Assembly: GCF_964213995.1 (NCBI RefSeq)
Contig: NW_027590151.1
Span: 744,001 to 808,000, forward strand
DNA: 64,000 bases
Direction: 5' to 3'
Origin: Mustelus asterias
Taxonomy: Eukaryota
Shown: positions 1,892 to 43,965 of the stretch, one piece after another
How the letters are laid out: the number at the start of each line of letters is the position of its first letter
How positions within the stretch are numbered: the stretch's first letter is position 1
Translations under genes and position numbers: made by a program
The notes under the pieces: model-generated
The model's database searches: none
The model's input: only the letters and a program-made list of their open reading frames with translations
What the model was told of the DNA's origin: nothing

Positions 1892-3379
1892 ATAAGAACA
1901 TAAGAACATAAGAAATAGGAGCAGGAGTAGGCCATCTAGCCCCTCGAGCCTGCCCCGCCATTCAATACGATCATGGCTGATCTGAAGTGGATCAGTTCCA
2001 CTTACCCGCCTGGTCCCTATAACCCCTAATTCCCTTACCGATCAGGAATCCATCTCTCCGTGATTTAAACATATTCAACGAGATAGCCTCCACCACTTCA
2101 GTGGGCAGAGAATTCCAGAGATTCACCACCTCTGAGAGAAGAAGTTCCTCCTCAACTCTGTCCTAAACTGACCCCCCTTTATTTTGAGGCTGTGCCCTCT
2201 AGTTCCAGCTTCCTTTCTAAGTGGAAAGAATCTCTCCACTTCTACCCTATCCAGCCCCTTCATTATTTTATATGCCTCTGTACGATCACCCCTCAACCTT
2301 CTAAACTCCAACGAATACAAACCCAATCTGCTCAATCTCTCCTCATAATTTACACCCCTCAACTCCGGTATCAACCTGGTGAACCTTCTCTGCACTCCCT
2401 CCAAGGCCAATATATCCTTTCGCAAGTAAGGGGACCAAAACTGCACACAGTATTCCAGCTGCGGCCTCACCAATGCCTTGTACAGATGCAGCAAGACTTC
2501 TCTGCTTTTATATTCTATCCCCCTGGTGATAAATACCAACATCCCATTTGCCTTCTTGATCACCTGTTGTACTTGCAGACTGAGTTTTTGCGACTCATGC
2601 ACAAGGACCCCCAGGTCCCTCTGCACAGTAGCATGTTGTAATTTTTTTCCATTTAAATAATAAACCAATTTACTATTATTTCTTCCAAAGTGGATAACCT
2701 CGCATTTGCTAACGTTATACTCCATCTGCCAGATCCTCGCCCACTCACTCAGCCTATTCAAATCTCTCTGCAGACCCTCCACTTCCTCCACGCAATTCAC
2801 TTTCCCACTCATCTTCGTGTCATCAGCAAACTTTGTTACCCTACACTCAGACCCCTCCTCCAGATCATCTATGTAAATAGTAAACAGTTGAGGCCCCAGT
2901 ACCGATCCCTGCGGCACGCCACTAGTCACCATCTGCCAACCAGAAAAGCACCCATTTATTCCAACTCTCTGCTTCCTGTTAGATAGCCAATCCCCAATCC
3001 ACGCTAACACCCTACCCCCAACTCCGTGTGCCCCAATCTTCTGCAGCAACCTTTTGTGAGGCACCTTATCGAATGCCCTTTGGAAATCCAAAAACACCAC
3101 ATCTACTGGTTCCACTCCGTCAACCGCACTAGTCACATCTTCATAAAAATCCAGTAAGTTCGTCAAACACGACTTTCCTCTCATGAATCCATGCTGCGTC
3201 TGCTTGATCGAACCATTCTTATCCAGATGGCCTGCTATTCCTTCTTTAATGATGGATTCCAGCATTTTCCCAACTACAGACGTTAAGCTAACCGGCCTGT
3301 AGTTACCCGCCTTTTGTCTACTTCCTTTTTTAAACAGCGGCGTAACAGTAGCCGTTTTCCAATCAGCTGGAACTACCCT
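1892..3379 (-). mobile_element. CR1-type LINE, 5'-truncated, fairly young
   Basis: ORF 2123..3265 has QHGF..GKSCLTNL, DFQRAFDKVPH, SGVPQGSVLGP and KFADDTK motifs. (ATAAGAAC)n tail at 1892-1915 on the + strand. Confidence 0.95.
2123..3265 (-). pseudogene. CR1 ORF2 reverse transcriptase C-terminal portion; 1-nt frameshift near the C-terminus
   Basis: RT motifs are intact. The ORF ends FFSQRW* where the expected continuation VVNLWNSLP lies in the adjacent frame. No endonuclease domain. Confidence 0.85.
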
Positions 3380-3439
3380 CTGACTGGACCAAAAATGTCT
3401 GAAATATACAGACTGGGCTCACTTCCTTTCCCTTCAGTG

Positions 3440-5003: not shown

Positions 5004-5346
5004 TCATAGAAACCATAGAAACATAGAAACCCTACAGCACAGAAGGAGGCCATTCGGCCCATCGAGTCTGCACTGACCACAATCCCACCCAGGCCCTATC
5101 CCCATACCCATGCATATTTTACCCACTAATCCCTCTAACCTACGCATCTCAGGACACTAAGGGCAATTTTAGCATGGCCAATCAACCTAACCCGCACATC
5201 TTTGGACTGTGGGAGGAAACCGGAGTACCCGGAGGAAACCCACGCAGACACGAGGAGAATGTGCAAACTCCACACAGACGGTGACCCAAGCCGGGAATCG
5301 AACCCAGGTCCCTGGAGCAGTGCTAACCACTGTGCTACCGTGCCGC
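5004..5346 (-). mobile_element. HE1/V-SINE-like SINE with CR1-type (TTCTATG)n tail
   Basis: Near full-length reverse copy; CATAGAAAC repeats at 5005-5030. Confidence 0.9.
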
Positions 5347-7620: not shown

Positions 7621-8588
7621 GACCTCTGACATTTTCAGTGTTATGCCTATGTTCCCTGTTAATCGCTCCTCGACTGTGGGAAACATGTCAGTCCTTTTTA
7701 CCCTTTCTCGGCCTCTCATAATTTTCAAGTCCTGGTTACATTCAGTCAGTCCCGTTACCCCTCCATATCCCCATTGCAAGTAAATTTGCCAGTTTATTAC
7801 CTTCTGGTGCCATCTACCTCCACTTCCACATGCTGCTGAAATCAAGTTCTTCCACTCATCCCCCATATATCCAGTAACACAATACTGTGTATTACATGGG
7901 TTTTTTAGTCCAGTTAACACATAAAATCGGTGAGCATGGATCTGTTGGTCAGCAAGAATTGGTCCCTTCAGGAGAATTGGGAGGGTGAATATTAGATACA
8001 GCAGAGTGAGAATTGAGGGAGAGTGTGTGGGATGGAGATTTACAGCTTTTGGGGAATGAGAAAGGAAAGAATATTCAATAGAAACTAGAATTGTCTGTTC
8101 TGAATTTCTATCCTGTACTGACTCTGATTTCTTTTGTAAACTCCTTTTACAGGATATCAGAAGGTGAGGATTTACAGACAAAAGTCAACATTTGACAGAG
8201 TCTCCCAATTCATCGGGACCTTAACATCGGCCTTTGAATCTAGGAGGAGGATATTACAGGATATTGAAAGAGGAATCACAGGCCATAATCTCAAACGTCA
8301 TGTCCAGATCTGACAGAGTCAAATTCCTTTGGACCTGAATATCATCGGCCTTGAGTCTAGAAGGAGGAATGGTTATCCAGTCTGCCGATTTGAAAAGATT
8401 TCAAACACCAGTAAGTCTGGAAAAGCACCAACACACTGCCACACTCAAGTGAGAGTATTCCAGTGCACTGAATAAAGAGGTTTAACCAGTTACACAGCCT
8501 GAATAAATATCACACCATTCCCAAAGGGAAGAGACTCTACCCGTGTTCTGTGTGTGGATGGAGCTTTAACTGATTGTCCATCTGAGCC

Positions 8589-9179
8589 ATGGAGAAACCA
8601 TGGAAATGTGCAGACTGTGGGAAGAGATACAGAGCCCCATCAGAGCTGGAAGCTCATCGGCGCAGCCACACTGGGGAGAGACCATTCATCTGCTCTCAGT
8701 GTGGGAAGGGATTCACTGAGTCAGGCCACCTGCAGCAACACCAGCGAGTTCACACTGGGGAGAAACCATTCACCTGCTCTCAGTGCGGGAAGGGATTCAC
8801 TCGGTTATCCAGCCTGCAGACACACCAGCGAGTTCACACTGGGGAGAGGCCGTTCACCTGCTCTCAGTGTGGGAAGAATTACAGTCAATCATCCCACCTG
8901 CATTCACACCAGCGAGTTCACACTGGGGAGAGGCCGTATATCTGCATTCAGTGTGGAAAGGAATTCGCTTTGTATTCTGAATGGCGGAGACACCAGCGAG
9001 TTCATACTGGGGAGAGGCCGTTCACCTGCTCTCAGTGTGGGAAGGGATTCATTCAGTCTTCAGACTTGCAGAGACACCAGCGAGTTCACACTGGGGAGAG
9101 GCCGTTCACTTGCTCTCAGTGTGGGAAGCGATTCATAGTTTCATCTCAGCTGCTGAAACATCAACAAGTTCACGAGTGA
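8589..9179 (+). CDS. C2H2 zinc-finger protein, 7 tandem fingers, no effector domain
   Basis: GCCATGG start, [10 protein letters not shown], 7 CxxC-x12-HxxxH units with TGE(R/K)P linkers; acceptor TTTTACAG at ~8152. Confidence 0.9.
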
Positions 9180-14881: not shown

Positions 14882-15724
14882 TCACTTGTGAACTCGCTGG
14901 TGTCTCTGCAGGGATGTTGACTGAGTGAATCCCTTTCCACATACAGAACAGGTGAATGGTCTCTCCCCAGTGTGAACTCGAACGTGTACCTGCAGTCTGG
15001 ATAACTGAGTGAATCCCTTCCCACAGTGAGAGCAGGTAAACAGCCCCTCCCCAGTGTGAACCCGCTGCTGTGTCAGCAGGCTGGATGCCCGGGTGAATCC
15101 CTTTCCACACACACAGCAGATAAATGGCCTCTCCCCAATGTGAGTTCGCTGGTGTTCCCGCAGGTTGAATGAATCAGTGAATCCCTTCCCACACACAGAG
15201 CAGGTGAATGGTTTCTCCCCAGTGTGAATTCGCTGGTGTCTCTGCAGGTGGGATGATGTTCTAAACCTCTTTGTGCAGTGAGAGCAGCTGAACGGCCTCT
15301 CCTCGGTGTGAATGTGCTGGTGGTCCCTCAGATCCTGAGACCTTTTGAATTCACTCCCACAGTCGGAGCATTTAAAGGGTCTCTCACTGGTGTGAACTCG
15401 CTGGTGTTCCTGCAGGTTGGATGTTGATCTAAATCTCTTTGAGCATTGAGAGCAGCTGAACGGTTTCTCCTCAGTGTGAATTCGCTCGTGTCTCAGCAGT
15501 TCCTGCGACCTTTTGAAGCTGCTCCCACAGTCGGAGCATTTAAAGGGTCTCTCATTGGTGAGAGTGACTTTGTGGTTCAACAACTTGGAGAAATAAGTGA
15601 ATCCCATGCCACACACAGAGCAGGTGAATGGCCACTCCTCAGTGTGAATACGTCGATGAATTTCCAGCCGAGATGGGAATCTGAATCCCTTCCCACAGTC
15701 CCCACATTTCCACGGTTTCTCCAT
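14882..15724 (-). CDS. C2H2 zinc-finger protein, 10 finger units (2 lack a His ligand)
   Basis: ACCATGG start at 15724 (the ORF track starts at an upstream TTG). TNERP/TEE(K/R)P/TSERP linkers make it a paralog of the 55995 gene. Acceptor at ~16080. Confidence 0.88.
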
Positions 15725-16539
15725 GGTGCGGGTGTCCTTGTGACTCTCCAGGTTAAACAATCAGTTAAACCTCACACAGAACACAGGTACAGTCTCTGCC
15801 CACTGTGAATGCTGTGATGTATTTTCAGGCTATATAACTGGTTAAAGCTCTTTCCACAGTCAGTGCACTGGAACACTCTCACTCGGGTGTGTGTGCGTTG
15901 GTGCATTTCCAGTCACACTGACGTTTAACGCCTTCTGAAGCAGACAGAACAGAGAAACATTTCTCCTTCTAGATGCAAAGGCCGATGGTATTCAGGTCCA
16001 GATGAATTGAGCGACTGTCAAATCTTGATGTGGCATATGGTTTGGGATTCTGTCAATGGATCCTAACCTTCTGATATCCTATAAAAGGAGTTTGCAGCAG
16101 ACATCAGAGTCACTACGGGATCAAAATTCAGAACAGATAATTCTAGTTTCGATAGAACATTCTTTCCCCACTCATTCCCCTAAATCTGTAAGTTGGTTAA
16201 GATATGGGGGTAGTGATTAGTCATGCTCCTGAACTTGCTGCCTGTGAGGGTAGTCAAGCAGAGATGATCAGTAATTTCTCAATGAGATTGGATGGGTGCT
16301 GCAGGAGTACAGAATGGGACCCTCTCCAGACTGACAGAATTGCTCGACAGAGAGTCAGCAGGGCCTCGAATTGTCCAATGGACTCCTCCTCTGCTGTAAT
16401 GACTCTGACTAGAAATATATAACGTAGCTACAGTACTACATTACAAGACAAGAAATAATAATAAATGTACTTTATTATAGATCCATCCAATATTTATCAC
16501 ATAACCACACTGTCATAATTCTGTCCTCAGAGTTTTAAA

Positions 16540-17770
16540 GCACAGCAAGAGGCCCTTTGACCCATCGTATTTGTGCTAGCTCTCAAGCACCAATCTGTTC
16601 TAATCCCACCTTTCACCACTTGGTCAGTAGCAGCCTTATATGTTATGGCACTTCAAGTACTTATCTAAATGCTTCTTAATGTTGAGCGTTCCCACCTCTC
16701 TCACCCTTTCAGGCAGTGAGTTCCAGATTCCCACCACCCTCTGGGTGAAAATCTTTTCCCTCAAATCCCCTCTAAATTTCCTGCCCCTCACTTAAATCTA
16801 TGTCCCTGGATATTGACCCAGCTACTAAAGGTCAGTGGACTGAGGGATCATATTTTTGTACATCTCAATCAGGCCCCCCCCTCAGCCTTCTCTGCTTTAG
16901 GGAGACCAATTCGAGCCTAACCAGCCTCTCTTCATGACTGACACGTTCCAGCCCAGGCAACATCCTGGTGAATCTCCTCTGCACCTTCTCCAGTGCAATC
17001 ACATCCTTCCTAAAGTGTGGCGACCCGAACTGCAAACAGTACTCCAGCATTTTATACACTCAATCATAACCTGCCTGCTGAAATATTTGATGCCTTGGCT
17101 AAAAAAGACAAGTATCCCATATCCCTTCTTAACCAGTTCATCAATCTGTCCTGCTGTCTTCGGGGTCCAATGGACATGCACCCCAAGGTCCCTCTGGTCT
17201 TCTGTACTTCCTGGCGTCCTATTGTTCATTATCTGTTCCTTTTTTTTAATACTTTTCCAATTCAATCAAATCAAATCCAATTCAGAGTCCCAACAAGTTG
17301 AGACACCCCAGATCCAGGCCGACAAGACAGGGCGAGCGACCAAACCACCCTGTCCCGGGCCCGATCCACATGAGCCAAGCTGATTGGAGAAGGGGGAGGC
17401 TCCTCCTCCAAGACTTGAACCCATCTGCACCTCAGCCAAAAGGCCGAGATGACGCTTTAAAAAATTGCTTCATATGAAACACATGAAGCCCCAGCGCAAC
17501 CCAATGACCCCGACCAAGTGCGGCCGACCATGGGCTGCCGACCACACTACACCCGATCTCAGCCAAAAGGCCGAGTTCCTTTGCCTTGTTAGTCCTTCCA
17601 AAATGCATCACCTCAGACATTTCAGGGTTAAATCACATTTGCCACTGTTCTGCCCACCTAACCAGCTCGTCCACATCATCCTGTAATCTAAGGTTTTCCT
17701 CCTCGCTATTTACCACATCACCAATTTTTGGACCATCAGCAAACTCACTGATCGAACCCCCACATTCATA
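16540..17770 (-). mobile_element. Degenerate CR1 LINE interrupted by the U2-headed element
   Basis: LEYCLQFGSPHFRKDVIALEKVQRRFTRMLPGL and QRDLGVHVH; SEVMHFGRTNK resumes after 17576. Confidence 0.85.
17243..17575 (-). mobile_element. U2 snRNA-headed short retroposon (SINEU-like), dimeric U2 head
   Basis: Reverse strand begins CTCGGCCTTTTGGCTGAGATCGGGTGTAGT (U2 5' end is CTCGGCCTTTTGGCTAAGATCAAGTGTAGT). Second CTCGGCCTTTTGGCTGAG at 17431-17448. A-rich 3' tail. TTCCTTT duplicated at 17236-17242 and 17576-17582. Confidence 0.8.
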
Positions 17771-17779
17771 TCCACAGGA

Positions 17780-19000
17780 AACTCCGCGCGGCCATTGACA
17801 CAGGGCCCGGACTCTGATTGGCTGGAGGACCAGCGTTCATCCGGTCCTCCAGGCGTTGCCATTGGTCAATCTGCCGCATGTGGACAATGAGGGGGCGGAA
17901 CCCGAGCCCACGTGGGGGTGGGCGGGGCTCAGCCAGCACACGGGGACTCATCCAGCCCACCCCTCCGCCATCGAGCACGTCCCCAATTCAGGTCACCCCG
18001 GCGTCCACAGCCCTCCTCTCCGCCAGCCACCTGAAGTCATACGGCTGGAGGAGCGGATTCCTGAGCAGCGGCTCTCGCACGAGAGCTGCTACTCCTGACG
18101 GGGGAGAGCTGCGTCGCAAGGCGACCTTGTTCCAGACAGTGAGGAGGTCCTGGTAAAAGACGGTGGCTGAGCCAGGATGGGGCCGTTAACCTGGGCCTGT
18201 TCCCGGGAGGGAGGGAGGGAGGGAGGGAGAAGCCCCGCAGCTGCAAACCAGGGAGCTGACAATGATTCTGAAGGGTTTGCGGATCCACAAAGTGTTTCCA
18301 AATCCTCCCAGCCACCGCCTAACGCTGACTCCGCTTCTCCGGGACAAACAAGCGCCAAGGACAGCAATGACACTGCGCATGCTCCACATCACAATGCCCC
18401 GGGGACAGATTGACGGCTGCTTCGGACCAATAGGAAGAGGGGGCGGGGCTGGAGGATCAAGCAAGAGAGGCTGGTCCTCCATCCAATCGGAGTGAATGAG
18501 GGGCGGGTCTGGAGGACCCAACAGGAGCGGCTGGTCCTCCAGCCAATCGGAGTGAATGAGGGGCGGGGCTGAGGCGTCCCCATACAACGCACGGGAAGTA
18601 GTTCGCATGCGCAGTAATGTTACAGTCTGGAGCATGCGCATTAAGCAACGGCGTTTGCAGCACGCGCAATGTGGGTGATAGCAATCGGAGCGAAGTTCCT
18701 CTGTCTCATCAGCAGCCGGTAAGGATGCGGAAACATAGAGGGAGTAATGGAACCGGCGGATGGACGTAGAGGGTTCCTAAATACCTGGTCAAGGCCTCAA
18801 ATCTCGAAAATGAGCCCGTCGGTCTGTGTTTGCAGCTTCCGGTCTTTTTCCCGAGCCGAGGCTCAGGTTAACGGCCGCCATCTTGATTCAGCAGGGAGGA
18901 GAGCGCATGCGCGGTGTCTTGGTGACGCAACAGCGAGTGGGCGGGGCTTCACGTTTCTGCTTCCCCTCCAGGTCCTAGCTCCCGGTTTTATAGCACAATG
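17780..19000. promoter_or_regulatory. CpG island, bidirectional promoter between the 15724(-) and 21715(+) ZNF genes
   Basis: Multiple GCGCATGCGC/NRF1-like sites, YY1-like GCCGCCATCTTG (~18874), tandem CCAATCGGAGTGAATGAGGGGCGGG modules, GGAGGACC/GGTCCTCC palindromes. Confidence 0.75.
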
Positions 19001-21500: not shown

Positions 21501-21714
21501 CCATGTAATTCTTTGTAAACTTATTTTGCAGGAAATTGAAGAGAAGGATCTGCAGTCTGGATGATCGAATCTCACGTCAGACAGAGTCAATCGGTTCATC
21601 GGGATCTGAAGATTTGTACATCTGAAGGGATTTAATTGACCATCTCAGTTGGAAACTGGTGAGAATCTGTTTCCTTGCTCCTCCTGTGGGAAGGGATTGA
21701 TACAGCTGGGAAAC

Positions 21715-23676
21715 ATGCTGACACAACAGCGAGCTCGCAATAGTGAGAGTTCATTCACCTGCTCCGTGTGTGGGAAGAAATTCATGTGTTCGTCCAACCT
21801 GCTGGCTCACCAACTCGATCACATTGATGAGAAGCCTCTTCAAAGCTCTGACTCTGAGGACAGCGTTGAGACGCCTGAGGAACAGGCCCAACACCAGCTC
21901 CTTCACACTGACGAGAGACCGTTCAGCTGCTCCCACTGCGGGAAGAGGTTCAGCCAGTCCTCCCGCCTTGCAGAGCACCAGCTCCTTCACACACACGAGA
22001 GACCGTTCAGCTGCTCTCACTGTGGGGAGTCGTTCGGCGACTCAGTGCATCTCACTGAGCATCAACCAGTTCATACCAAGGACAGGCCATTCAGCTGCTC
22101 CCAGTGTGGGAAGAGATTCACTCAGTCCTCCCACTGCACCGTTCACCAACTGGTTCATTCTCAGAAGAGACATTTTAAATGTTTTAAATGTGAGAAGACC
22201 TTCAAAAGAAGGATTAGTCTGCTGAGACACCAGGACACTCACACTGGGGAGAAGCCGTACCCCTGTTCTGTTTGTGGGAAGAGATTCGCTCATTCATCTC
22301 ATCTTCTGACACACAAGCGAGTTCACACTGGGGAGAGGCCTTTCCTCTGCTCCCTGCGTGGGAAGGGATTCACTCGATTTTCACACCTTTTGACACACAA
22401 GAGTATTCACACTGGAGGGAAACCATTCACCTCCTCAATGTGTAGAAAGGAAGAAGTTCAATCATCTGACCAGCTGACACACCAGCGAGTTCACACTGGG
22501 GAGAAGCTGTTCACCTGCTCGGTGTGTGGGAAGGAATTCACTCGGTCTTACTATCTTCTGAGGCACCAGCGAGTTCACACTGGGGAGAGGCCATTCCTCT
22601 GCTCCGTGTGTGGGAAGATGTTTCATTGTTCATCCCATCTTGTGATACACGAGCGTGTTCACACAGGGGAGAGGCCTTACGTTTGCCCTGTGTGCGGGAA
22701 AGCATTTGCTTCTTTACAACACCTGCTGAAACATCGGCCTGTTCACACCGGGGAGAGGGCGTTCATCTGCTCCGAGTGTGGGAAGGCTTTCACCGAGTCA
22801 TCCAGCCTCCGGACACACCGCCGCACTCACACAGGGGAGAAGCCGTTCTCTTGCTCCATTTGTGGCAAGAGATTCACCCAGTCATCTGACCTGCTGAGAC
22901 ACCAATACATTCACACAGGGGACAGGCCGTTCACCTGCTCTGTGTGTGGGAAGGGATTCATTGGTTCATCCCGCCTGCAGACACACCAGCGAGTTCACAC
23001 CGGGGAGAAGCCGTTCACCTGCTCTGTGTGTGGGAAGGGATTCACTCAGGTATCCAGCCTGCAGAGACACCAGCGAGTTCACACTGCGACAGAACCGTTC
23101 ACCTGCTCTCAGTGTGGGAAGGGATTCACTGATCCATCCCACCTGCAGAGACACCAGCGAGTTCACACTGGGGAGAAGCCGTTCACCTGCTCTGTGTGTG
23201 GGAAGGGATACACTCAGGTATCCAACCTGCAGAGACACCAGCGAGTTCACACTGGAGAGAGGCCGTTCCTGTGCTCTGTGTGTGGAAAGGGATTCGCTCA
23301 GTCGTCTAGCCTGCTGAGACACCAACGCATTCACACCGGGGAGAAGCCGTTCACCTGCTCTGTGTGTGGGAAGGGATTCACTGATTCATCCTATATGCTG
23401 AAACACCAGCGAGCTCACACTGCGACAGAACCGTTCACCTGCTCCCTGTGTGGGAAGGGATTCACTGATCCATCCCGTCTGCAGAGACACCAGCGAGTTC
23501 ACACTGGGGCAAAACCTTTCAACTGCTCCATGTGTGGGAAGGGATTCACTGATCCATCCCGCCTGCAGAGACACCAGCGAGTTCACACTGGGGCAAAACC
23601 GTTCAACTGCTCCATGTGTGGGAAGGGATTTACTCAGTATTACAGCCTGCTGAAACATAGACGACTTCATGTGTGA
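21715..23676 (+). CDS. C2H2 zinc-finger protein; the open frame from 21649 holds ~24 finger units (~20 intact)
   Basis: Open frame 21649..23676 (track start is TTG; first ATG at 21715). Acceptor TTATTTTGCAG at 21531. Degenerate units near the N-terminus and at CSLR/SSMC. Confidence 0.88.
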   Translation: MLTQQRARNSESSFTCSVCGKKFMCSSNLLAHQLDHIDEKPLQSSDSEDSVETPEEQAQHQLLHTDERPFSCSHCGKRFSQSSRLAEHQLLHTHERPFSCSHCGESFGDSVHLTEHQPVHTKDRPFSCSQCGKRFTQSSHCTVHQLVHSQKRHFKCFKCEKTFKRRISLLRHQDTHTGEKPYPCSVCGKRFAHSSHLLTHKRVHTGERPFLCSLRGKGFTRFSHLLTHKSIHTGGKPFTSSMCRKEEVQSSDQLTHQRVHTGEKLFTCSVCGKEFTRSYYLLRHQRVHTGERPFLCSVCGKMFHCSSHLVIHERVHTGERPYVCPVCGKAFASLQHLLKHRPVHTGERAFICSECGKAFTESSSLRTHRRTHTGEKPFSCSICGKRFTQSSDLLRHQYIHTGDRPFTCSVCGKGFIGSSRLQTHQRVHTGEKPFTCSVCGKGFTQVSSLQRHQRVHTATEPFTCSQCGKGFTDPSHLQRHQRVHTGEKPFTCSVCGKGYTQVSNLQRHQRVHTGERPFLCSVCGKGFAQSSSLLRHQRIHTGEKPFTCSVCGKGFTDSSYMLKHQRAHTATEPFTCSLCGKGFTDPSRLQRHQRVHTGAKPFNCSMCGKGFTDPSRLQRHQRVHTGAKPFNCSMCGKGFTQYYSLLKHRRLHV

Positions 23677-29069: not shown

Positions 29070-29939
29070 TTATTTATGAACTTGCTGGTGTCTCAGCAAT
29101 GCGGATGACTGAGTGAATCTCTTCCCACACTTGGCGCAGGTGAATGGTCTCTCCCCGGTGTGAACCCGCTGATGTACAGTGAGATGAGATGATCGCCTGA
29201 ACCCAGTCCCACAGTGAGAGCATCTGAATGGTTTCTCGTCAGTGTGAACTTGTTGATGGGACACCAGTTCCTGCGAGGTTTTAAAACATTTCCCACACTT
29301 CAGACACTTAAACGGTCTCTCATCAGTGTGGCCTCTTTGGTGTGTAATTAGGATGGATGAATTAACAAATCCCTTCCCACACTGGGAGCAGGTGAATGGT
29401 CTCTGCCTCGTGTGAACTTGTTGGTGTGTCAGCAGGGTGGATTTGTGAGTGAATCCCTTTCCACACTCAGAGCAGGTGAATCGCTTCTCCCCGGTGTGAA
29501 CTCGCTGGTGTGTCAGCAGCGTGGATGACTGAGTGAATCCCATCCCACACACAGAGCAGGTGAATGGTCTCTCCCCAGTGTGAATTAGTTTGTGTTTAAT
29601 CAGGGTGGATGACTGAGTGAATCCCTTCCCACACAAAGAGCAGGTGAATGGCCTCTGCCCAGTGTGTGTGCGCTGGTGATTTTGCAGGGTGGATAACTTA
29701 GTGAATCCCTTCCCGCAGTCCGAGCAGGTGAACGGCCTCTCCCCGGTGTGACCACGCCGATGGGTTTCCAGCTGGGATGGGTAATTGAATCCCTTCCCAC
29801 AGACCCCACATTTCCACGGCTTCTCCCCATCATGACTGCATTTATGTTTGAACAGGCCAGATGATTGGTTGAAGTCTTGTCCACAAACGGAACACGAGTA
29901 AGGTTTCTCCCCACTGTGAACGGTGCTTTTTCCTTCCAT
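29070..29939 (-). CDS. C2H2 zinc-finger protein, 10 fingers ([13 protein letters not shown] subfamily)
   Basis: AACATGG start at 29939, 10 CxxC/HxxxH units, acceptor TCAATTTCACAG at ~30049. Confidence 0.9.
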
Positions 29940-30329
29940 GTTCAAAATCCGATGATATTCCGGTCACAAAAAATTAGGCGACTCTGTGAGATCCTGATGT
30001 GGAATTTGGTTTCAGTTTCCCAACTGCAAATCCTAATCTTCTAAGACACTGTGAAATTGATTTAAAACAGAAAAAAAGGGAGTGAGAGAGAACGCACAAA
30101 AACAGGCTGTGAAATTGAGCTGAATGAATGGGGTCATTTGTGGGGCCGGCATTAAGAAGAAGTGACCATGAAAGCTGCTGGATCGTCATAAAAACCCAAC
30201 TGATTCATTTATGCTTCAGGGAAGGAAACCTGCCGCCTGGTCTGGACTGACACATGAACCAATATCTATCGAAGGGGTGAGAGAGAGGTGGAAGAAGCAG
30301 AGGGTTAAGGAGAGGGTTTCTCTACATCT

Positions 30330-33574: not shown

Positions 33575-34201
33575 TCAACCAACCTGGAGAGAAACAAGGA
33601 TACCAGCACCACAGGGAAACCGTGTAAATGTGGGGATTGTGGAAAGGGATTCAAGTATCCATCCCTGCTGGAAATTCATCGACGCAGTCACACTGGAGAG
33701 AAACCATTCACCTGCTCTGTATGTGGGAAGGGATTCACTCAGTCAACCACTCTGCTGAGACACCAGCGATTTCACACAGGGGAGAGACCGTTCCCCTGTT
33801 GTGTGTGTGGGAAGGGATTCACTCAGTCATCTGAGCTTCTGATACACTGGAGAGTTCATACTGGAGAGAAGCCATTCACCTGCTCTGTTTGTGGGAGGGG
33901 ATTCACTCAGTTATCCCAGCTGCTGACACACCAGCGAGTTCACACTAGGGAGAGGCCATTCACCTGCTCTGTGTGTGAGAAGAGATTCACTAATTCATCA
34001 AACCGGCTTACACATCAGCGAGTTCACACTGGCGAGAGACCATACGTTTGTTCCATGTGTGAGAAAGGATTCACAACTTCATCCAACCTTTTGACACACC
34101 AGCGAATTCACACCCGAGAGAGGCCATTCACCTGTTCGGTGTGTGAGAGGGGATTCAGTCAGCTAGCCCACCTGCTGACACACCAGCAAGTTCACAAGTG
34201 A
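33575..34201 (+). CDS. 7-finger C2H2 ZNF frame lacking the family ATG (ACCATGG became ACCACAG); pseudogene or non-AUG start
   Basis: Frame is open from the TGA at 33572 to 34201: [24 protein letters not shown]... All 7 fingers intact; the first Met is in finger 6. Confidence 0.6.
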   Translation, partial: STNLERNKDTSTTGKPCKCGDCGKGFKYPSLLEIHRRSHTGEKPFTCSVCGKGFTQSTTLLRHQRFHTGERPFPCCVCGKGFTQSSELLIHWRVHTGEKPFTCSVCGRGFTQLSQLLTHQRVHTRERPFTCSVCEKRFTNSSNRLTHQRVHTGERPYVCSMCEKGFTTSSNLLTHQRIHTRERPFTCSVCERGFSQLAHLLTHQQVHK

Positions 34202-34954
34202 CTGAAGGGTTTGGATTCCACTGATGTTGCTGGCGTTCATCATACCCAGGACTGAACCATGTTCATTCTGACAATTCAGGTTTGTCTCTCTGATGTGACC
34301 AACCATAGTTCTGGCTGGAGTTTAAGATTCTAGTTAGTTAACTGATTGTGTTCTTGGGCCTGCAGCCTCCCTTTAAGAATATGTGTCTGTGATCATTCCC
34401 CTGAATTCAGAGAATTCCACCAGCAATCAGTTTGCCACAAATATTGAACTTTTACTTCAATCCTAAATTGATCTTTGGTTCAAACTCGACAATTCACTGT
34501 CTGAGAGGTTCTACTGATGAACATCTTCAATTAGAAAGTGCTGATTAATCCTTGCTGACAATTCTTACTGACCTGCACATTACACACAGTGAGAGCTCCG
34601 TTATCCCCCAGAAAGAAGGGGAATGGGAATTGGTGGAGAATCAAGCATTCCCAAATGTTACCCCTCCCGTCTGGTACAGAAATCCCCTTGGCCCGGGAAT
34701 GAAGACAGGTCCAATTGAAATAACAAACTGGTGTATATCTTTTATGAAAAAGGGGCTACAAAATCATCAGATAGGAGAGATTGGTGTCAATCATATTGAG
34801 TAAACAAGTAAACTAAATCAAATTAACTGAGGGGAGGGGATTGGTGTCAGTGACTGTGGAGTTTACATCAGTCAGCAGGAGATTGGTGTCAGTGACTGTG
34901 GGGTTTACATCAGACGGGGGAAGATTGATGTCAGTGACTGTGGGGTTTTATATC

Positions 34955-35216
34955 ATGATGTGGAGATGCCGGCGTTGGACTGGGGTAAGCACAGTAAGAA
35001 GTCTCACAACACCAGATTGTCTGTACCTTTAAGACCTGGCTGGCTGTAGAGATTTGCATTCTAATCAGTATTCTGTAACTTGATTTTGTGTCTCTGTGCA
35101 CTGTTGGAGACAGATATCCACTCCATCTGACGAAGGAGCAGCACTCCGAAAGCTTATGGTATTTGCTACCAAATAAACCTGTTGGACTTTAACCTGGTGT
35201 TGTGAGACTTCTTACC
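34955..35216 (+). mobile_element. Short Penelope insertion with inverted termini and 12-bp TSD
   Basis: GTAAGAAGTCTCACAACACCAG / CTGGTGTTGTGAGACTTCTTAC inverted; GGGTTTTATATC at 34943-34954 and 35217-35228. Confidence 0.8.
35123..35159 (+). ncRNA. Minimal type I hammerhead ribozyme (PLE-type)
   Basis: CCAU-CUGACGA-A-GGAG(cagca)CUCC-GAAA-GCUU^AUGG: core boxes, stem II, palindromic AGCU stem III, stem I CCAU/AUGG. Confidence 0.8.
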
Positions 35217-35430
35217 GGGTTTTATATCGGACAGAAGGAGATTGGTGTCAGTGACTGTGGGGTTTATATCAGACACGAGGAGATTGGTGTCAGTGTGGGG
35301 TTTATATCAGACAGGAGGAGATTGGTGTCAGTGTGGGGTTTATATCAGACAGGAGGAGATTGGTGTCAGTGACTGTGGGGTTTATATCAGACAGGAGGAG
35401 ATTGGTGTCAGTCACTGTGGGGGTTTATGT

Positions 35431-35850
35431 CATGATGTGGATATGCCGGCGTTGGACTGGGGTGAACACAGTAAGAGTTTTAACAACACCAGGTTAAAGT
35501 CCAACAGGTTTATTTGGTAGCAAATACCATTAGCTTTCGGAGCGCTGCTCCTTCGTCAGATGGAGTGGAAATGTGCTCTCAAACAGGGCACAGAGACACA
35601 AAATCAAGTTACAGAATACTGATTAGAATGCGAATCCCTACAGCCAGCCAGGTCTTAAAGGTACAGACATGTGGGTGGAGGGAGCATTAAGCACAGGTTA
35701 AAGAGATGTGTATTGTCTCCAGACAGGCCAGCCCGCAAGTCCAGGAGGCAAGCTGTGGGGGTTACTGATAATGTGACATAAATCCAACATCCCGGTTTAG
35801 GCCGTCCTCATGTGTGCGGAACTTGGCTATCAGTTTCTGCTCAGCGACTC
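35431..35850 (-). mobile_element. Penelope-like element 3' end
   Basis: Homologous to 1298-1690, including TTTAGGCCGTCCTCATGTGTGCGGAACTTGGCTATCAG (GIY-YIG C-terminus). Confidence 0.85.
35527..35563 (-). ncRNA. Minimal type I hammerhead ribozyme (PLE-type)
   Basis: Reverse strand CCAU-CUGACGA-A-GGAGC(agc)GCUCC-GAAA-GCUA^AUGG. Confidence 0.82.
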
Positions 35851-37115
35851 AGGGAGAGTTCACCAGCTGCATGAGGAAAAGGATTAACTGGCTCGTCCCA
35901 TTCAGTGACACAGTCGGACAATCACACTGAGAAAGGGTTCAGACACTTCCTGTCTCTGAAGGGATTTACTCAGCTTTCCCGCCTGTTAACATCCCAGTTT
36001 AAAAACCAAATGATTTCTTGCACAATCAGTTGTGGGATGGAGGAGAGTCAGTGTGTGGATGAGGAAGATTCACAACACTCCCCTCAGGCTGCAAATCCCA
36101 AATCCACATTTTCCCCATTTGCGTTGGCAGCTCTGGGCATTGCCCAGGTGATGGGCCCAGGTTAACAGCTGCCATCCTCATAGGGGGCCATGAGCAGCTG
36201 GTCATGTGTGCACATATTAATCTGACTTTTCACTGCACCCTTGCTCTGACTGAAACACTATGATCTGCACCCTTTCCTTCTCCCTTATGTACTCTATGAA
36301 CGGTATGTTTTGTCTGCACAGCACGCAAGAAACAATACTTTTCACGTGACAATAAATCAAATCAATGTGTCATCATCCTGGGCTCGGAACTGGGAGGAGA
36401 GAACATAGAACAGTACAACACAGAACAGGCCCTTCGGCCCACGATGTTGTGCCGAGCTTAATCTGAAACCAAGAATGTTGTGAATTTCCCAGAATTGTTA
36501 CAGCGCAGAAAGAGGCCATTTGGCCCATGTGTCTGTGCTGACTCTTGGAATGAGCAATTCATGGAGAGCTATTCCCCTGTCTCCTCCCTGCAACTCAGTT
36601 CATTTGTCCCCTTCAGATAACCAAATTCAGAGTTTGTATCCTGGACGGACAGTGATGGATTTTGGAAACTCCTTTTACAGAGGGCTAGAAGGGGAGGATT
36701 TACATATAGCAAACGCAAAGCAAGAGAAATATTTGTTCGGAATGTTCTCCTGTCCTTACATTGACAGCTATTTTACACACCTTTTTCGACAGGAAGTTGC
36801 AGTCGGAAAACACGTCAATATCTGACAAATTCACTCGATTCATCAGGATCTGAATATCTTTGACCTTTGAATGTGGAAGGAGAAACGTTTGTTCTGTCTG
36901 TGGGAAAAGATTTCAAACATCAGTGTGACTGGAAAAATACACACACCCGAGTGAGAGTGTTCCAGTGAACTGAGTGTGGAAAGAGTTTTAACCAGTTACA
37001 CAGCCTGAAAAACCATCGCACCATTCACAGTGGGGAGAGATTGTACATGTGTTCTGTAGGTAAACAAGAATCAAAGTGATCATCCACCTTGAAGAGACAC
37101 AAAGACATCTTAACC

Positions 37116-37790
37116 GTGGATAAACCATGGGAATGTAGGGACTGTGGGGAGGGATTCTGTTACCCATCCACACTGCAAATTCATCAACGCAGTCACACTG
37201 GGGAGAGACCATTCACTTGTTCTCGGTGTGGGAAGGGATTCACAAATTCATCTGACTTTCTGGCACACCAGCGAATTCACACAGGGGAGAGACCATTTAT
37301 CTGCTCTGAGTGTGGAAAGGGATACACTCGGTCATCCCACCTGCTGATACACAAGCGAGTTCACACAGGGGAGAGACCATTCACCTGCTCTGTTTGTGGG
37401 AAATGTTTTACAAATTCATCTGATCTTCTGACACACCAGCAAGCTCACACTGGGGCGAGACCATTCACCTGCTCCATCTGTCGTAAGAGATTCACTCGGT
37501 CAACACTCCTCACTGCACACCAACTTGTTCACACTAACAATAGACCTTTTAAATGTTCTGATTGTGAGAAGAGCTTTAAAAGCAGGCGTGAAGTGCTGTC
37601 ACACCAACGTACACACACTGGGGAGAGGCCATTCACCTGCTCCGAATGTGGGAAGAGATTCACCAATTCATCCAACTTTCTGAGACACCAGCGAGTTCAC
37701 ACTGGGGAGAGGGTGTTTACCTGCTGTGTCTGTAGGAAGGGATTTGCTCAGTCAAACAACCTGGTTCGACACCAGCGTGTTCACAAGTGA
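37116..37790 (+). CDS. 8-finger C2H2 ZNF frame with no ATG; family start replaced by ACCGTGG
   Basis: 8 intact fingers with no Met codon; in-frame TGA at 37077; acceptor CTCCTTTTACAG at 36680. Confidence 0.62.
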   Translation: MDKPWECRDCGEGFCYPSTLQIHQRSHTGERPFTCSRCGKGFTNSSDFLAHQRIHTGERPFICSECGKGYTRSSHLLIHKRVHTGERPFTCSVCGKCFTNSSDLLTHQQAHTGARPFTCSICRKRFTRSTLLTAHQLVHTNNRPFKCSDCEKSFKSRREVLSHQRTHTGERPFTCSECGKRFTNSSNFLRHQRVHTGERVFTCCVCRKGFAQSNNLVRHQRVHK

Positions 37791-39298: not shown

Positions 39299-39589
39299 GG
39301 AGCAAGTGTGTTTGAGAACTATCAACTGGAAAACTCATGTACTCTGGCACGAGAAAGAAACTGTTGATTCTGGAATCGAAGCCAGTCAGGGTATGGTCAG
39401 GGGCGGAGTGGTGAGTGGAGGGACGTTAATGTGCAGTTGGAAAAGTTTAGAAACCTCTACTTAGTTGCAGAGGAGAGTAGGGGTTTAAATCCCTTTGAGA
39501 AATGAAACATAGAGCATCTATTCAAAAGAATTAATGTATCTCAATTGGGGAGCAAAATTATTTCATATTCCCTGTTTCACTGTGCAATG

Positions 39590-39745
39590 GCGCTGTAGGT
39601 ACCCAGCATTCGCTGCGGGTGTGAAAGTGCCCAATTCAGTCCACAGGAGGCCAGTGCGCAGTCGTGGTGCTGTATCTGGAGCATGCGCACTGTCACTTTG
39701 CTCGGAGCATTGCGAGTGCGGGAGACGCTTCTTTCAACGGGTGAG
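39590..39745 (+). promoter_or_regulatory. Promoter/first-exon module, paralog of 50660-50820
   Basis: TACCCAGCATTCG.TGCGG.TGTGA..GTGCCC..., GAGCATGCGCA and donor CGG|GTGAGA at ~39741. Confidence 0.65.
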
Positions 39746-39751
39746 AGTCAG

Positions 39752-41277
39752 TGGGGCGGAGGGAGGAATGGAGCCGGGGGTCGGGGTGGGGAGGGGGGAA
39801 TGGAGCCGGGAGTCGGGGTGGGGAGGGAGGAATGGAGTCGGGGTGGGGAGGGAGGAATGGAGTCGGGGTGGGGGGGGAGGAATGGAGCCGGGAGTCGGGG
39901 TGGGGAGGGAGGAATGGAGTCGGGAGTCGGGGTGGGGAGGGGGGAATGGAGCCGAGAGTCGGGGTGGGGAGGGAGGAATGGAGTCGGGGTGGGGGGAGGA
40001 ATGGAGCCGGGAGTCGGGGTGGGGAGGGAGGAATGGAGCCGGGAGTTGGGGTGGGGAGGGGGGAATGGAGTCGGGGTGGGGAGGGAGGAATGGAGTCGGG
40101 AGTCGGGGTGGGGAGGGAGGAATGGAGTCGGGAGTCGGGGTGGGGAGGGAGGAATGGAGCCGGGAGTCGGGGTGGGGAGGGAGGAATGGAGTCGGGAGTC
40201 GGGGTGGGGAGGGAGGAATGGAGCCGGGAGTCGGGGTGGGGAGGGAGGAATGGAGTCGGGAGTCGGGGTGGGGAGGGAGGAATGGAGTCGGGAGTCGGGG
40301 TGGGGAGGGGGGAATGGAGTCGGGAGTCGGGGTGGGGAGGGAGGAATGGAGTCGGGGTGGGGAGGGAGGGAGGAATGGAGCAGGGAGTCGGAGTGGGGAG
40401 GGGGGAATGGAGCCGGGAGTCGGGGTGGGGAGGGAGGAATGGAGTCGGGGTGGGGAGGGAGGGAGGAATGGAGCAGGGAGTCGGAGTGGGGAGGGGGGAA
40501 TGGAGCCGGGAGTCGGGGTGGGGAGGGGGGAATGGAGCCGAGAGTCGGGGTGGGGAGGGGGGAATGGAGCCGGGAGTCGGGATGGGGAGGGAGGAATGGA
40601 GTCGGGGTGGGGAGGGAGGAATGGAGTCGGGGTGGGGAGGGAGGGAGGAATGGAGCAGGGAGTCGGAGTGGGGAGGGGGGAATGGAGCCGGGAGTCGGGG
40701 TGGGGAGGGGGGAATGGAGCCGAGAGTCGGGGTGGGAGGCGGAATGGAGCCGGGAGTCGGGGTGGGGAGGGAGGTATGGAGTTGGGAGCCGAGAGTCGGG
40801 GTGGGGAGGGAGGAATGGAGTCGGGGTGGGGAGGGAGGAATGGAGTCGGGGTGGGAGGCGGAATGGAGCCGGGAGTCGGGGTGGGGAGGGAGGAATGGAG
40901 TCGGGGTGGGAGGCGGAATGGAGCCGGGAGTCGGGGTGGGGAGGGAGGAATGGAGTCGGGGTGGGAGGCGGAATGGAGCCGGGAGTCGGGGTGGGGAGGG
41001 AGGAATGGAGCCGGGAGTCGGGGTGGGAGGCGGAATGGAGCCGGGAGTCGGGGTGGGGAGGGAGGAATGGAGTCGGGGTGGGAGGCGGAATGGAGCCGGG
41101 AGTCGGGGTGGGGAGGGAGGAATGGAGTCGGGGTGGGAGGCGGAATGGAGCCGGGAGTCGGGGTGGGGAGGGAGGAATGGAGTTGGGAGCCGAGAGTCGG
41201 GGTGGGGAGGGGGGAATGGAGCCGGGAGTCGGGATGGGGAGGGAGGAATGGAGCTGGGAGTCAGGGTGGGGAGGGAG
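39752..41277 (+). repeat. G-rich minisatellite (32-bp GGAATGGAGCCGGGAGTCGGGGTGGGGAGGGA with 25-bp and other variants), G4-prone
   Basis: About 1.5 kb of tandem units with GGG/GGGG runs; extreme purine and G skew. Confidence 0.97.
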
Positions 41278-41409
41278 CGGAAGATTTACAAACACGCACT
41301 GGAGGTCGCAAGGCCCCATAATGACTCCGGGGGCCCGTAATGTCAGCACTGCGGCTTTTTCCCGGGAACAGGCCCAGAATATCAGCCGCCATCTTGTTCC
41401 AGCAGTGCA

Positions 41410-42576: not shown

Positions 42577-43965
42577 GGTGTTCGAAGAGGAGGATTTGCA
42601 GTTGAGAAATACAAGGCAAACATCACAGCAGGATCTGATGGAGCTGCCCAGTTAATGGTAACCTGGTTATCATTCGGATTTTAAACATTGAAGGAAAAAG
42701 CATTGTTCACAGTGGATGAAACCATTCTCTGTGTGGACGAGGCTTCAGTTGATCATTTGGCCTCAGGAGCTCCAAATGTAAATATACTGGGGAGAAACCA
42801 TGGAATAGTGAGGACTCTGAGGAGGGATTTGGTTCTCCATGTGAACTGGAAACTCATAACACAGTCACACCAGGGAGCGGCCATTCACCTGCTCTGTGTG
42901 TTGGACTGGTTTCACTCCATTATCCAACCTGTTGGCTCACTGACATATTCATACTGGGGGCAGATGGTGCAAATTCTCCAGATGGTGCAAAGGGATTCAC
43001 TCAGTCATCCCACCTTAAGACACACAAATGAGTTCACACTCGGGAGTGATTTTTTAAATGCCCAGACTATGAGAAGAACTATAAAAATTCCCAGGAAGTG
43101 ATATTCAGCAATGAGTTCACACTGAGGAGAGACTGTTCAGGTGCTCTCACTGTGAGACTAGGATCAGGCAATCATCTGACCACACTGCACACCAGCGAGT
43201 TCACACCAGGGAGAAGTTGTTCCTCTGCTCTGAGTGGGGAAGAGATTCACTCAGACATCCCACCTCATGGAACACAAGCGAGTTCACATTGGGCAGAGGA
43301 CATTCGCCTGCTCCGAGTGTGGGAAAAGATTCACTCAGTTATCTAAATTGCTGACACACCACCGAGTTCACACTGGGGAGAGACCTTTTAAATGTCCCGA
43401 CTGCACAAAATGTTATAGAAGTTCCTGGGAACTGAGGCGCCATCAACGTGTTCACACTGATAAGAGACCATTCAGGTGCTCTCACTGTGAGACTAGGTTC
43501 AAACAATTATCTTGTCTCACTGTACATCAGCGAGTTCACGCTGGGGAGAGGCCTTTCATCTGCTCTGTGTGTGGGAAGAGATTCACTCGGTCATCAGCAT
43601 TCAAGGCACACAAGGTAGTTCACACTGGGGAGAGGCCATTCACCTGTTTCCAGTGTGGAAAAGGATTCGCTCGGTCATCCAACCTGCTTTCGCACCAGTT
43701 AGTTCACACTGATGAGAAACCTTACAAATGCCCAGACTGCGGGAGGTGCTATAAAAGTACAAGGGAACTGATGCGCCATCAACGTGTTCACACTGATGAG
43801 AAACCGTTCTGATGCTCTTATTGTGGGACTGGGTTCAGGCGACCATCTTATCTCACTGCACATCAACGCACTCACACTGGGGAGAGACCGTTCACCTGCT
43901 CCCAGTGTGGGAAGGGATTCTCTCAATCATCCAGCCGACTGAAACACCAGCGAGTTCATCAGTGA
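42577..43965 (+). pseudogene. Decayed ZNF paralog of the 29939 gene; residual 6-finger ORF 43267..43812
   Basis: Same acceptor (CAATTTCACAG), ATG changed to ATT, frameshifts/stops in the 5' fingers, premature TGA at 43810 followed by two intact fingers to 43965. Confidence 0.8.

What the first reader, a model, noticed from the sequence alone, without database searches (positions are those of the whole stretch)
17243..17575. U2-snRNA-headed retroposon (SINEU-like) in a shark-type genome, with a duplicated U2 head
Seen: on the minus strand the element starts with ~30 nt matching the U2 snRNA 5' end and carries a second U2 stem-loop I copy ~125 nt downstream, after a T6 stretch. It ends in ATTTG repeats plus an A-rich tail and is flanked by a TTCCTTT duplication inside a CR1. 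Known: U1/U2-headed SINEs (SINEU) were described from crocodilians, and the Keno (Tx1) and Utopia LINEs target U2 genes. Inference: this is a distinct snRNA-derived SINE family, or a non-autonomous Keno/Utopia derivative, mobilised by target-primed reverse transcription. I do not know of one described in elasmobranchs but cannot search.
Basis: partly seen in the sequence, partly recalled or inferred. Interest (0 to 1): 0.8.

Follow-up and report, generated by a model that had tools for sequence, protein, structure and literature searches.

The report
U2-headed shark SINE, hyper-edited copy
This is one copy of an abundant short jumping element, in what appears to be a shark or ray genome, that begins with a piece of the U2 splicing RNA (a design described before in crocodilians), and this copy seems to carry many A-to-G changes of the kind RNA editing makes, written back into DNA.

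Summary
Confirmed and extended. The 333-nt insert (17243-17575, minus strand) splits a CR1 LINE. Paralogous CR1 contigs skip 340 nt, which is the insert plus a 7-nt target-site duplication. It has a U2 head (nt 8-37), a second U2 stem-loop I 127 nt on, an internal T6, a chain of hairpins (z -6.0) and an A tail. Its body is a very abundant dispersed repeat in 4 of 4 runs laid (four organisms); in two runs over 100 contigs end in poly(A) on unrelated flanks. A one-off pseudogene is therefore refuted, and it works like crocodilian SINEU. New: this copy differs from the family almost only by sense-strand A>G (11 of 13 near-fixed differences; background 11%), and 3 of 3 differences from U2 in the head are A>G. 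That points to an ADAR-hyper-edited RNA that was retrotransposed. Against: G is not depleted 5' of these sites, and the source genome was unavailable, so the Gs may belong to a subfamily. The partner LINE (probably L1/Tx1) and promoter are inferred. No shark SINEU was found in six literature searches; Repbase/Dfam were not searchable.

The parts
17576..17582 (-). 5' copy of the target-site duplication (AAAGGAA in element sense)
   Evidence: empty-site joints skipping 340 nt
17546..17575 (-). Head 1: U2 snRNA nt 8-37 (stem-loop I and branch-point-pairing region); 3 A>G differences at 17560, 17554, 17553. 17545 (U2 nt 38, G for A) is an ambiguous boundary base
   Evidence: Rfam U2 alignment
17490..17545 (-). 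Unit 1 body, with a hairpin at 17548-17516; A-poor (8% A over the first 97 nt).
   Evidence: fold z -3.8; composition; depth table
17459..17489 (-). Hairpin (17489-17467) followed by T6 (17464-17459); well covered from about 17478 down in all four organisms. T6 would stop Pol III; weak alignment to the U2 Sm-site region
   Evidence: (z -5.2)
17413..17453 (-). Head 2: U2 stem-loop I (U2 nt 8-27 at 17448-17429), a 7-nt insert (17428-17422), then a U2 nt 24-32-like piece (17421-17413). With the family's majority letters the junction reads ATGCAAAT (octamer; motif identity recalled)
   Evidence: (table 3)
17366..17426 (-). Long hairpin A (overlaps the end of head 2)
   Evidence: z -2.1 (6 of 200 shuffles as stable)
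17308..17368 (-). Long hairpin B; stem shared by four organisms, loop (about 17348-17333) differs between them
   Evidence: z -3.9; depth dip and loose ends
17284..17306 (-). Short 3' hairpin; pair 17301/17290 varies together at the population level in organisms C and D (unphased)
17243..17283 (-). 3' tail: two ATTTG units, an A-rich end and a 5-nt A run. In organisms C and D the family ends in AATAAA plus poly(A) at 17255/17256
   Evidence: loose ends (132, 116 and 63 contigs)
17236..17242 (-). 3' copy of the target-site duplication
17290..17491 (-). Near-fixed sense A>G differences from the family: 17491, 17433, 17430, 17425, 17421, 17367, 17362, 17356, 17320, 17307, 17290
   Evidence: table 3; tallies
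16603..17782 (-). Host: decayed CR1 LINE 3' part, split in register by the insert
   Evidence: tblastn with 8 held RT proteins; P0001; flank translations

Best explanation
A copy of a high-copy, non-coding, U2-headed retroposon (SINEU-type) of elasmobranchs. Shown: two U2-derived heads, an internal T6, a hairpin chain, an A tail, a 7-nt TSD, and dispersal with shared 3' ends in four organisms. Inferred: the RNA is made by Pol II, not Pol III (internal T6; AATAAA plus poly(A) in relatives). It is inserted by target-primed reverse transcription by an L1/Tx1-clade LINE that nicks T-rich DNA (here 5'-TTCCTTT/G) and primes on the A tail. The family grew by adding a U2 5' piece plus spacer onto an older U2-headed unit, as SINEU-1 did. 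Also inferred: the RNA that gave this copy, or its immediate source copy, was hyper-edited by ADAR on its self-folding hairpins (about a quarter of its As). Reverse transcription read inosine as G and fixed the edits in the genome. Odds: family is a SINEU-type retroposon about 0.9; L1/Tx1 partner about 0.75; ADAR origin of the A>G cluster about 0.7.
For: Family: 3663, 2527, 2944 and 3358 contigs laid (CR1 flanks included) in X1, X5, X6, X8. Summed depth peaks over the 3' part at 1.41M, 1.59M, 0.22M and 0.25M, while single contigs are mostly 5-30 deep; that is 8-30 times the adjoining CR1 peak (not a copy number). 132 (X6) and 116+63 (X8) contigs leave at 17255/17256 into A-rich tails with low agreement. 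Records 19, 20, 21, 26 and 27 continue 200-2600 nt into other flanks. Structure: z -5.97, 0 of 100 shuffles; CR1 flank control z -0.5. A>G: 13 of 17 majority differences from X1, and 11 of 13 near-fixed ones. Worst case, counting the non-A>G X1 places that were not shown against the reading, is 13 of 21. A>G outnumbers T>C 13 to 1 (sign test p 0.0009; worst case 0.011). In-window control SINE (16 copies, 357 substitutions): A>G 10.9%, T>C 7.3%; p 5e-10 for 13/17 and 3e-8 for 13/21. Direction is set by the outgroup: U2 has A at 17560, 17554, 17553, 17433 and 17430. 3' G is enriched (9 of 15 vs 12 of 44, p 0.03) and 5' U trends up (4 of 15 vs 3 of 44, p 0.06). Hyper-editing occurs in elephant shark and on self-folding repeats in frog (PMC5625713, passages). 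SINEU traits (internal oligo-T, poly(A), recurrent U2 additions, Tx1 mobilisation) are from PMC4494074.
Against: G is not depleted 5' of the A>G sites: 5 of 15 vs 14 of 44, whereas strong upstream-G depletion is the shared ADAR motif (PMC5625713). Four of the five are GAG, which ultra-editing tolerates relatively better (PMC3197674 passage), but the mismatch remains. Changed As are no more often paired than unchanged As (14 of 17 vs 32 of 44, p 0.52). Two of the 13 majority sites (17400, 17308) have G in other organisms too and were dropped from the strict set. One control copy reached 9 A>G of 38. 13 variant rows were not shown. The comparison set may not be the source species: the best run holds only 52% of words and no listed contig spans this insertion's junctions (32 of 12,760 pieces shown). 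No partner LINE, master copy or RNA was seen. No listed contig spans the whole element, so the two-headed form as one repeated unit rests on overlapping coverage in X1.
Confidence: 0.68

Rival explanations
1. Same family, but the Gs are the consensus of a subfamily of the source lineage, reached by ordinary mutation in a master copy (favouring G-U/G-C pairs, with transcription-linked A>G bias). No RNA editing is involved.
For: Organism A may not be the source species (52% of words). 5' G is not depleted. X1 record 8 matches 17386-17478 with 1 other letter at depth 49.7, so near-identical G-bearing sequence exists in a few copies. G at 17400 and 17308 is shared with other organisms.
Against: The strand asymmetry is 13:1 against a background of 11% vs 7%. 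Four organisms share A at most strict sites. The 52% word share needs no G subfamily, since 48-58% of 31-mers carry at most one difference and a very large family would hold such words. GC-biased conversion would raise T>C equally.
Confidence: 0.2
2. A non-autonomous Keno (Tx1) passenger. A source copy sits in a U2 gene at the Keno site and is co-transcribed from the U2 promoter, so head 1 is simply U2 nt 1-38; these chimeric RNAs then insert elsewhere. This is compatible with the best explanation and would supply the missing promoter.
For: Head 1 ends at U2 nt 37-38. Keno and Utopia insertions are followed by U2 from nt 39 (PMC4640811 section 6; PMC6136364 passage). SINEU movers (Tx1-Mar) cluster with Keno (PMC4494074).
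Against: This copy's 3' flank is CR1, not U2. Head 2 ends near U2 nt 32, not 38. Template switching onto U2 RNA explains such heads in SINEU-2. No Keno sequence was available to compare. None of the loose ends shown (24 of 798) led into U2 nt 39 onward.
Confidence: 0.3
3. The shared part is the 3' end or an internally deleted form of an autonomous Tx1/L1 LINE (HAL1/Bov-A-like), with U2 pieces belonging to that LINE's 5' end.
For: The last 80-90 nt are 6-7 times deeper than head 2 in C and D, and 2-2.5 times in A and B. Some crocodilian Tx1 families have U1/U2 heads.
Against: 5' truncation and divergence also give that gradient. Coverage runs from the hairpin+T6 through head 2 to the tail in all four runs, although the loop of hairpin B is barely covered in B-D. 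No ORF remnant of a LINE lies inside the insert.
Confidence: 0.2
4. A single chimeric U2 pseudogene with no siblings.
For: Only one copy in the 64-kb window.
Against: Thousands of contigs in four organisms, with shared 3' ends on unrelated flanks.
Confidence: 0.02

Closest known systems
SINEU-1 / SINEU-3 of crocodilians (Kojima 2015, PMC4494074)
   Same: U2-derived 5' piece of about 30 nt, repeated U2 pieces through 5' addition or partial duplication, under 500 nt, internal oligo-T, poly(A) tail, short TSD, tandem insertions (one joint in X1).
   Different: Reported only from crocodilians. This family is in elasmobranch-type DNA, has an octamer-like insert in head 2 and a strongly folded body, and this copy sits in CR1, not Mariner-N4. 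Sequence homology to SINEU-1/2/3 could not be tested.
Keno (Tx1) and Utopia (RLE) U2-targeting LINEs (PMC4640811, PMC6136364)
   Same: Head 1 stops at the U2 position where these insert (nt 37-38/39).
   Different: No ORF; not flanked by U2 at the 3' side; the 7-nt TSD matches neither the 0-bp nor the 20-bp TSD reported for Utopia.
snRNA/LINE chimeric and tailless snRNA retropseudogenes (PMC4476161)
   Same: 3'-truncated snRNA piece at the 5' end, TSD, T-rich nick site.
   Different: Those are independent one-off events; here a shared composite body with a shared insert is amplified in four organisms.
Known shark SINEs SacSINE1 and CmiSINEs (PMC5499810)
   Same: Short non-autonomous retroposons of cartilaginous fishes.
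   Different: tRNA heads, Deu/CORE domains and L2 tails; that paper has 0 occurrences of 'snRNA'.
ADAR hyper-edited repeat RNAs (PMC5625713, PMC3197674); APOBEC-edited LTR elements fixed in genomes (PMC4866542)
   Same: Strand-specific clustered transitions on a self-folding repeat; editing of a retroelement intermediate inherited as DNA.
   Different: Here the change is A>G in genomic DNA of a non-LTR element. A>G-hypermutated avian proviruses are known (recalled, no call).

Membership tests
SINEU (Kojima 2015) | Head derived from U1 or U2 snRNA | tested here: met
   27 of 30 nt to Rfam U2 nt 8-37; second stem-loop I
SINEU (Kojima 2015) | Short (<500 nt), non-coding, 3' poly(A) | tested here: met
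   333 nt; A tail; AATAAA plus poly(A) in C and D
SINEU (Kojima 2015) | Dispersed family from master copies, not a sum of independent chimeras | tested here: met
   shared body, shared insert in head 2 and shared 3' end on unrelated flanks in 4 of 4 runs; met for the body, weaker for head 1 (one organism)
SINEU (Kojima 2015) | Internal oligo-T and no Pol III promoter | tested here: inconclusive
   T6 present; no tRNA gene. A B-box-like word at 17422-17412 includes two positions (17421, 17419) where this copy departs from the family; promoter activity not tested
SINEU (Kojima 2015) | Sequence homology to SINEU-1/2/3 bodies | not testable with these tools
   consensus sequences not held; supplement unavailable
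SINEU (Kojima 2015) | Mobilised by a Tx1 family with shared target preference | not testable with these tools
   no genome; this copy is in CR1; TSD and A tail fit L1/Tx1 only in general
Non-autonomous Keno/Utopia | Inserted in a U2 gene with U2 nt 39+ as 3' flank | tested here: not met
   3' flank is CR1
Non-autonomous Keno/Utopia | 5' U2 piece ends at nt 37-38 | tested here: met
   head 1; head 2 does not
Non-autonomous Keno/Utopia | Termini shared with the autonomous element | not testable with these tools
   no Keno/Utopia DNA available
tRNA/5S/7SL-headed SINE | Pol III gene-derived head | tested here: not met
   no tRNA; no such Rfam match at E up to 10 in 17230-17590
ADAR hyper-edited sequence | Clustered strand-specific A>G, polarised | tested here: met
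   11 of 13 near-fixed; 3 of 3 in head 1; 13:1 against T>C
ADAR hyper-edited sequence | Double-stranded substrate | tested here: met
   z -5.97; but changed As are not more often paired than others
ADAR hyper-edited sequence | G depleted 5' of edited A | tested here: not met
   5 of 15 vs 14 of 44
ADAR hyper-edited sequence | G enriched 3' of edited A | tested here: met
   9 of 15 vs 12 of 44, p 0.03; small n

The most novel reading that the evidence does not exclude
Elasmobranchs carry an independently evolved, very abundant U2-headed SINE whose source copies sit at the Keno site of U2 genes and borrow the U2 promoter. Its hairpin RNA is hyper-edited by ADAR in the germline and still retrotransposes, so A-to-I editing is repeatedly written into the genome and seeds new subfamilies: heritable RNA editing through a SINE.
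Probability: 0.25. Interest if true: 0.88.

Novelty: new variant of a known kind. Interest (0 to 1): 0.66.

Why it matters
SINEU was reported only from crocodilians, where copy numbers are in the hundreds to thousands and transcription is an open question (PMC4494074). A far more abundant family in cartilaginous fishes would show that snRNA-headed SINEs arose twice or are ancient. It would give many young copies with which to find the promoter (U2-gene co-transcription versus an internal octamer) and the partner LINE, plus presence/absence markers for shark phylogeny. A genomic copy bearing ADAR-type hypermutation would be a direct fossil of germline A-to-I editing of a SINE RNA. It makes testable whether ADAR edits retroposon RNAs before insertion, whether editing restricts them, and whether it drives their evolution.

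Tried and rejected
No whole genome is held, so copies could not be counted in the source. Other copies in the window: none (blastn; motif). A 26-nt motif gave 0 hits in metagenome contigs and 0 in viral contigs. A 20-nt motif gave 3 metagenome and 3 prokaryote loci, all matching only 20-28 nt and treated as chance. No RNA holder was listed, which says nothing on expression. Rfam: nothing at gathering score in the window; the other hits near the element (E about 2-6) are taken as chance. Pfam on 18 ORFs or frames found one RT (the CR1 at 2126-3418) and two zinc-finger ORFs, and no L1/Tx1 endonuclease; this covered 17 of the 78 frames plus the flank. No octamer-like word (up to 1 mismatch) in 17243-18100 of this copy. 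CpG decay was rejected as the source of the G/A differences: only 4 of 17 Gs follow C, and the A is near-fixed and shared with U2. GC-biased conversion was rejected by strand asymmetry. An L2/CR1-type microsatellite tail was rejected because the ATTTG units are internal. My first idea that organism A must hold the orthologous insertion is not needed. Absence of unit 1 in C and D is a lack of cover at 80% likeness, not shown absence: a B loose end suggests a diverged homologue upstream of 17479. Literature on a shark or ray SINEU: 30 of 542 listed; 12 of 12; 13 of 13; 13 of 13; 21 of 23; 30 of 1,420; none found in the listings. Literature on genomic A>G-hyper-edited SINE copies: 30 of 46; 1 of 1; 22 of 23; 30 of 200; none found in the listings. 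Subscription papers, Repbase Reports and Dfam were not searchable.

Full report
1. Observation. On the minus strand, 17575-17243 is a 333-nt insert. Its first 30 nt match positions 8-37 of the Rfam U2 consensus at 27 of 30, and all three differences are G for A. The covariance score is low (18 bits, gathering 46) because the rest of U2 is absent. The first 18 nt recur exactly 127 nt on; no third match exists at up to 3 mismatches, with 0.05 expected by chance. A hairpin plus T6 precedes the second copy. A 7-nt duplication (8 with one ambiguous base) brackets the insert. The flanks are one CR1: held RT proteins align collinearly up to and from the insert, and the flanks translate in register. 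The ATTTG units are two and internal. The window is a C2H2 zinc-finger cluster. Named elasmobranch proteins are the most identical named homologues of its open CR1 ORF (59-69% against 57% or less; 120 of 7431 hits listed).

2. Is it a family? No genome was held. A run search listed 14 runs; 13 hold part of the stretch, from 5 studies. I laid 4 of the 14, one per labelled organism, on 17173-17645 at 80% likeness (contigs only). Paralogous CR1 contigs skip 340 nt, which is 333 plus 7 and gives the empty site. Summed depth over the element's 3' part is 1.41M, 1.59M, 0.22M and 0.25M, while single contigs are mostly 5-30 deep. That is 8-30 times the adjacent CR1 peak; the tool warns that this is no copy number, but it indicates a very abundant repeat. 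In organisms C and D, 132 and 116+63 contigs leave the reference at 17255/17256 into A-rich tails, with AATAAA at the junction, and several continue for hundreds of bases into unrelated DNA. The segment from about 17478 to the tail (hairpin+T6, head 2, hairpins) is covered in all four, except that the loop of hairpin B is barely covered in B-D: stems are shared and that loop differs. The first head and unit (17493-17556) are covered at 32,000-99,000 in A, 6-930 in B, and 0 over 17493-17540 in C and D. This is lack of cover, not shown absence. No listed contig spans the whole element. One X1 joint leads from a 5' end through 11 letters into another copy's tail, a tandem insertion as in SINEU-3.

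3. Anatomy. The RNA folds far better than shuffles (z -5.97, 0 of 100) as five to six local hairpins; the CR1 flank does not (z -0.5). Head 2 is U2 nt 8-27, a 7-nt insert and a U2 nt 24-32-like piece. With the family's majority letters the junction spells ATGCAAAT, the octamer of snRNA distal elements (motif identity recalled; its function here is untested, and this copy has lost it). Head 1 ends at U2 nt 37-38, and Keno and Utopia insertions are followed by U2 from nt 39 (PMC4640811 section 6).

4. Against the X1 majority, this copy differs at 17 shown places inside the element; 13 are family A to window G in sense, 1 is T to C. Keeping only near-fixed places (89% or more) leaves 11 A>G of 13. 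I dropped 17400 and 17308 because other organisms carry G there. X1 has 32 variant places in all and 5 were not shown; counting the four non-A>G ones against the reading gives 13 of 21. A different SINE with 16 copies in the window shows A>G in 10.9% and T>C in 7.3% of 357 substitutions (one copy reached 9 of 38), so 13 of 17 has p 5e-10 and 13 of 21 p 3e-8. U2 fixes the direction at five sites. About a quarter of the As are affected (15 of 59). Context is mixed: 3' G enriched (9 of 15 vs 12 of 44, p 0.03), 5' U trending (p 0.06), but 5' G not depleted (5 of 15 vs 14 of 44), contrary to the ADAR motif (PMC5625713 passages). Four of those five sites are GAG, relatively commoner in ultra-edited RNA (PMC3197674 passage). 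Changed As are not more often paired than the rest. The counts with n=15 include three head sites and one ambiguous boundary site taken from the U2 comparison. The 52% word share of X1 is what a very large family would give when 48-58% of 31-mers carry at most one difference. X1 may therefore not be the source species, and I cannot tell whether the Gs are private to this copy or mark a subfamily. One X1 contig (record 8, depth 49.7) matches 17386-17478 with one other letter, so close sisters or the orthologue exist there.

5. Mechanism. Shown: TSD, A tail, dispersal, fold, A>G skew. From established knowledge: a short TSD at a T-rich nick with a poly(A) tail is L1/Tx1-type TPRT; an internal T6 stops Pol III; inosine is copied as G. 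Inferred: a Pol II transcript, from a U2 gene carrying the element at the Keno site, from a flanking promoter, or helped by the octamer, folds into hairpins. It is edited by ADAR and inserted by a Tx1/L1 enzyme, here into an old CR1 that probably lies in an intron of a zinc-finger gene. Rivals and odds are in their sections.

6. Comparison. It works like SINEU and meets the structural features tested. Homology to crocodilian SINEU-1/2/3 and a Tx1 partner could not be tested, so I file it as SINEU-type, not as a member of those three families. It fails the U2-gene-flank test for a Keno/Utopia insertion. It fails one of four ADAR features (5' G depletion), which lowers but does not remove the editing reading.

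7. Novelty. Kojima found no SINEU outside crocodilians (PMC4494074; I read parts 1-4 of 5 of the text; figures and supplement not seen, and these hold the SINEU sequences). Six searches found no shark or ray SINEU in their listings, and four found no report of a genomic A>G-hyper-edited SINE copy. Seen as passages only: PMC4640811 (plus section 6), PMC6136364, PMC5625713, PMC3197674, PMC4866542, PMC5499810, PMC7186786, PMC4476161, PMC7245038, PMC12946260. A repeat this abundant is likely to sit unnamed, or as U2, in automatic repeat libraries and may be in Repbase or Dfam, which I could not search.

8. Verdict. A real, abundant U2-headed SINE-type family, apparently undescribed in the searched literature for cartilaginous fishes, with a copy that looks like a fossil of a hyper-edited RNA. 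New variant of a known kind; interest 0.66.

Noticed in passing
window 8586-9179, 14882-15760, 21640-23676, 29070-29963, 33575-34201, 37080-37790, 43234-43812, 55959-57620: Tandem cluster of C2H2 zinc-finger ORFs on both strands (84-nt repeat). The element lies between a minus-strand and a plus-strand gene, just past a GC-rich stretch (about 17800-18400) and a donor-like site at 17748, so it may be intronic and in sense. Pfam was run on two of these ORFs.
   Followed up: partly
window 2123-3418 (-): CR1-type ORF open for 431 aa with an RVT_1 domain; 77-78% identical to unnamed database proteins, 59-69% to named elasmobranch proteins.
   Followed up: partly
window 5017-5346, 49480-49860, 53445-53772, 62886-63219 and others: A second abundant SINE of about 350 nt, 16 copies of 150 nt or more; resembles shark HE1 (recalled, not tested). 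Used as the substitution control. Copy 47597-47913 has 9 A>G of 38 differences.
   Followed up: partly
window 39500-41400: G-rich tandem repeat with 32- and 55-nt units and extreme GC skew; open in several frames.
   Followed up: no
window 17301 and 17290: Paired positions of the short 3' hairpin change together at population level in organisms C (15%/28%) and D (42%/52%) but hardly in A and B: a possible compensatory U-A to C-G change, unphased.
   Followed up: no
X1 record 1 (17240-17384): A single-depth contig with 14 other letters whose depth (19.2) equals the residual at 17307 and 17320, where all other laid contigs carry the family letter; possibly another, independently hyper-edited copy. 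Its letters were not shown.
   Followed up: no
X5 loose end behind 17479: Organism B continues upstream with a diverged homologue of the hairpin base, having A at several places where the window has G.
   Followed up: no
window 34816-35454: Tandem repeat of 38-42-nt units.
   Followed up: no
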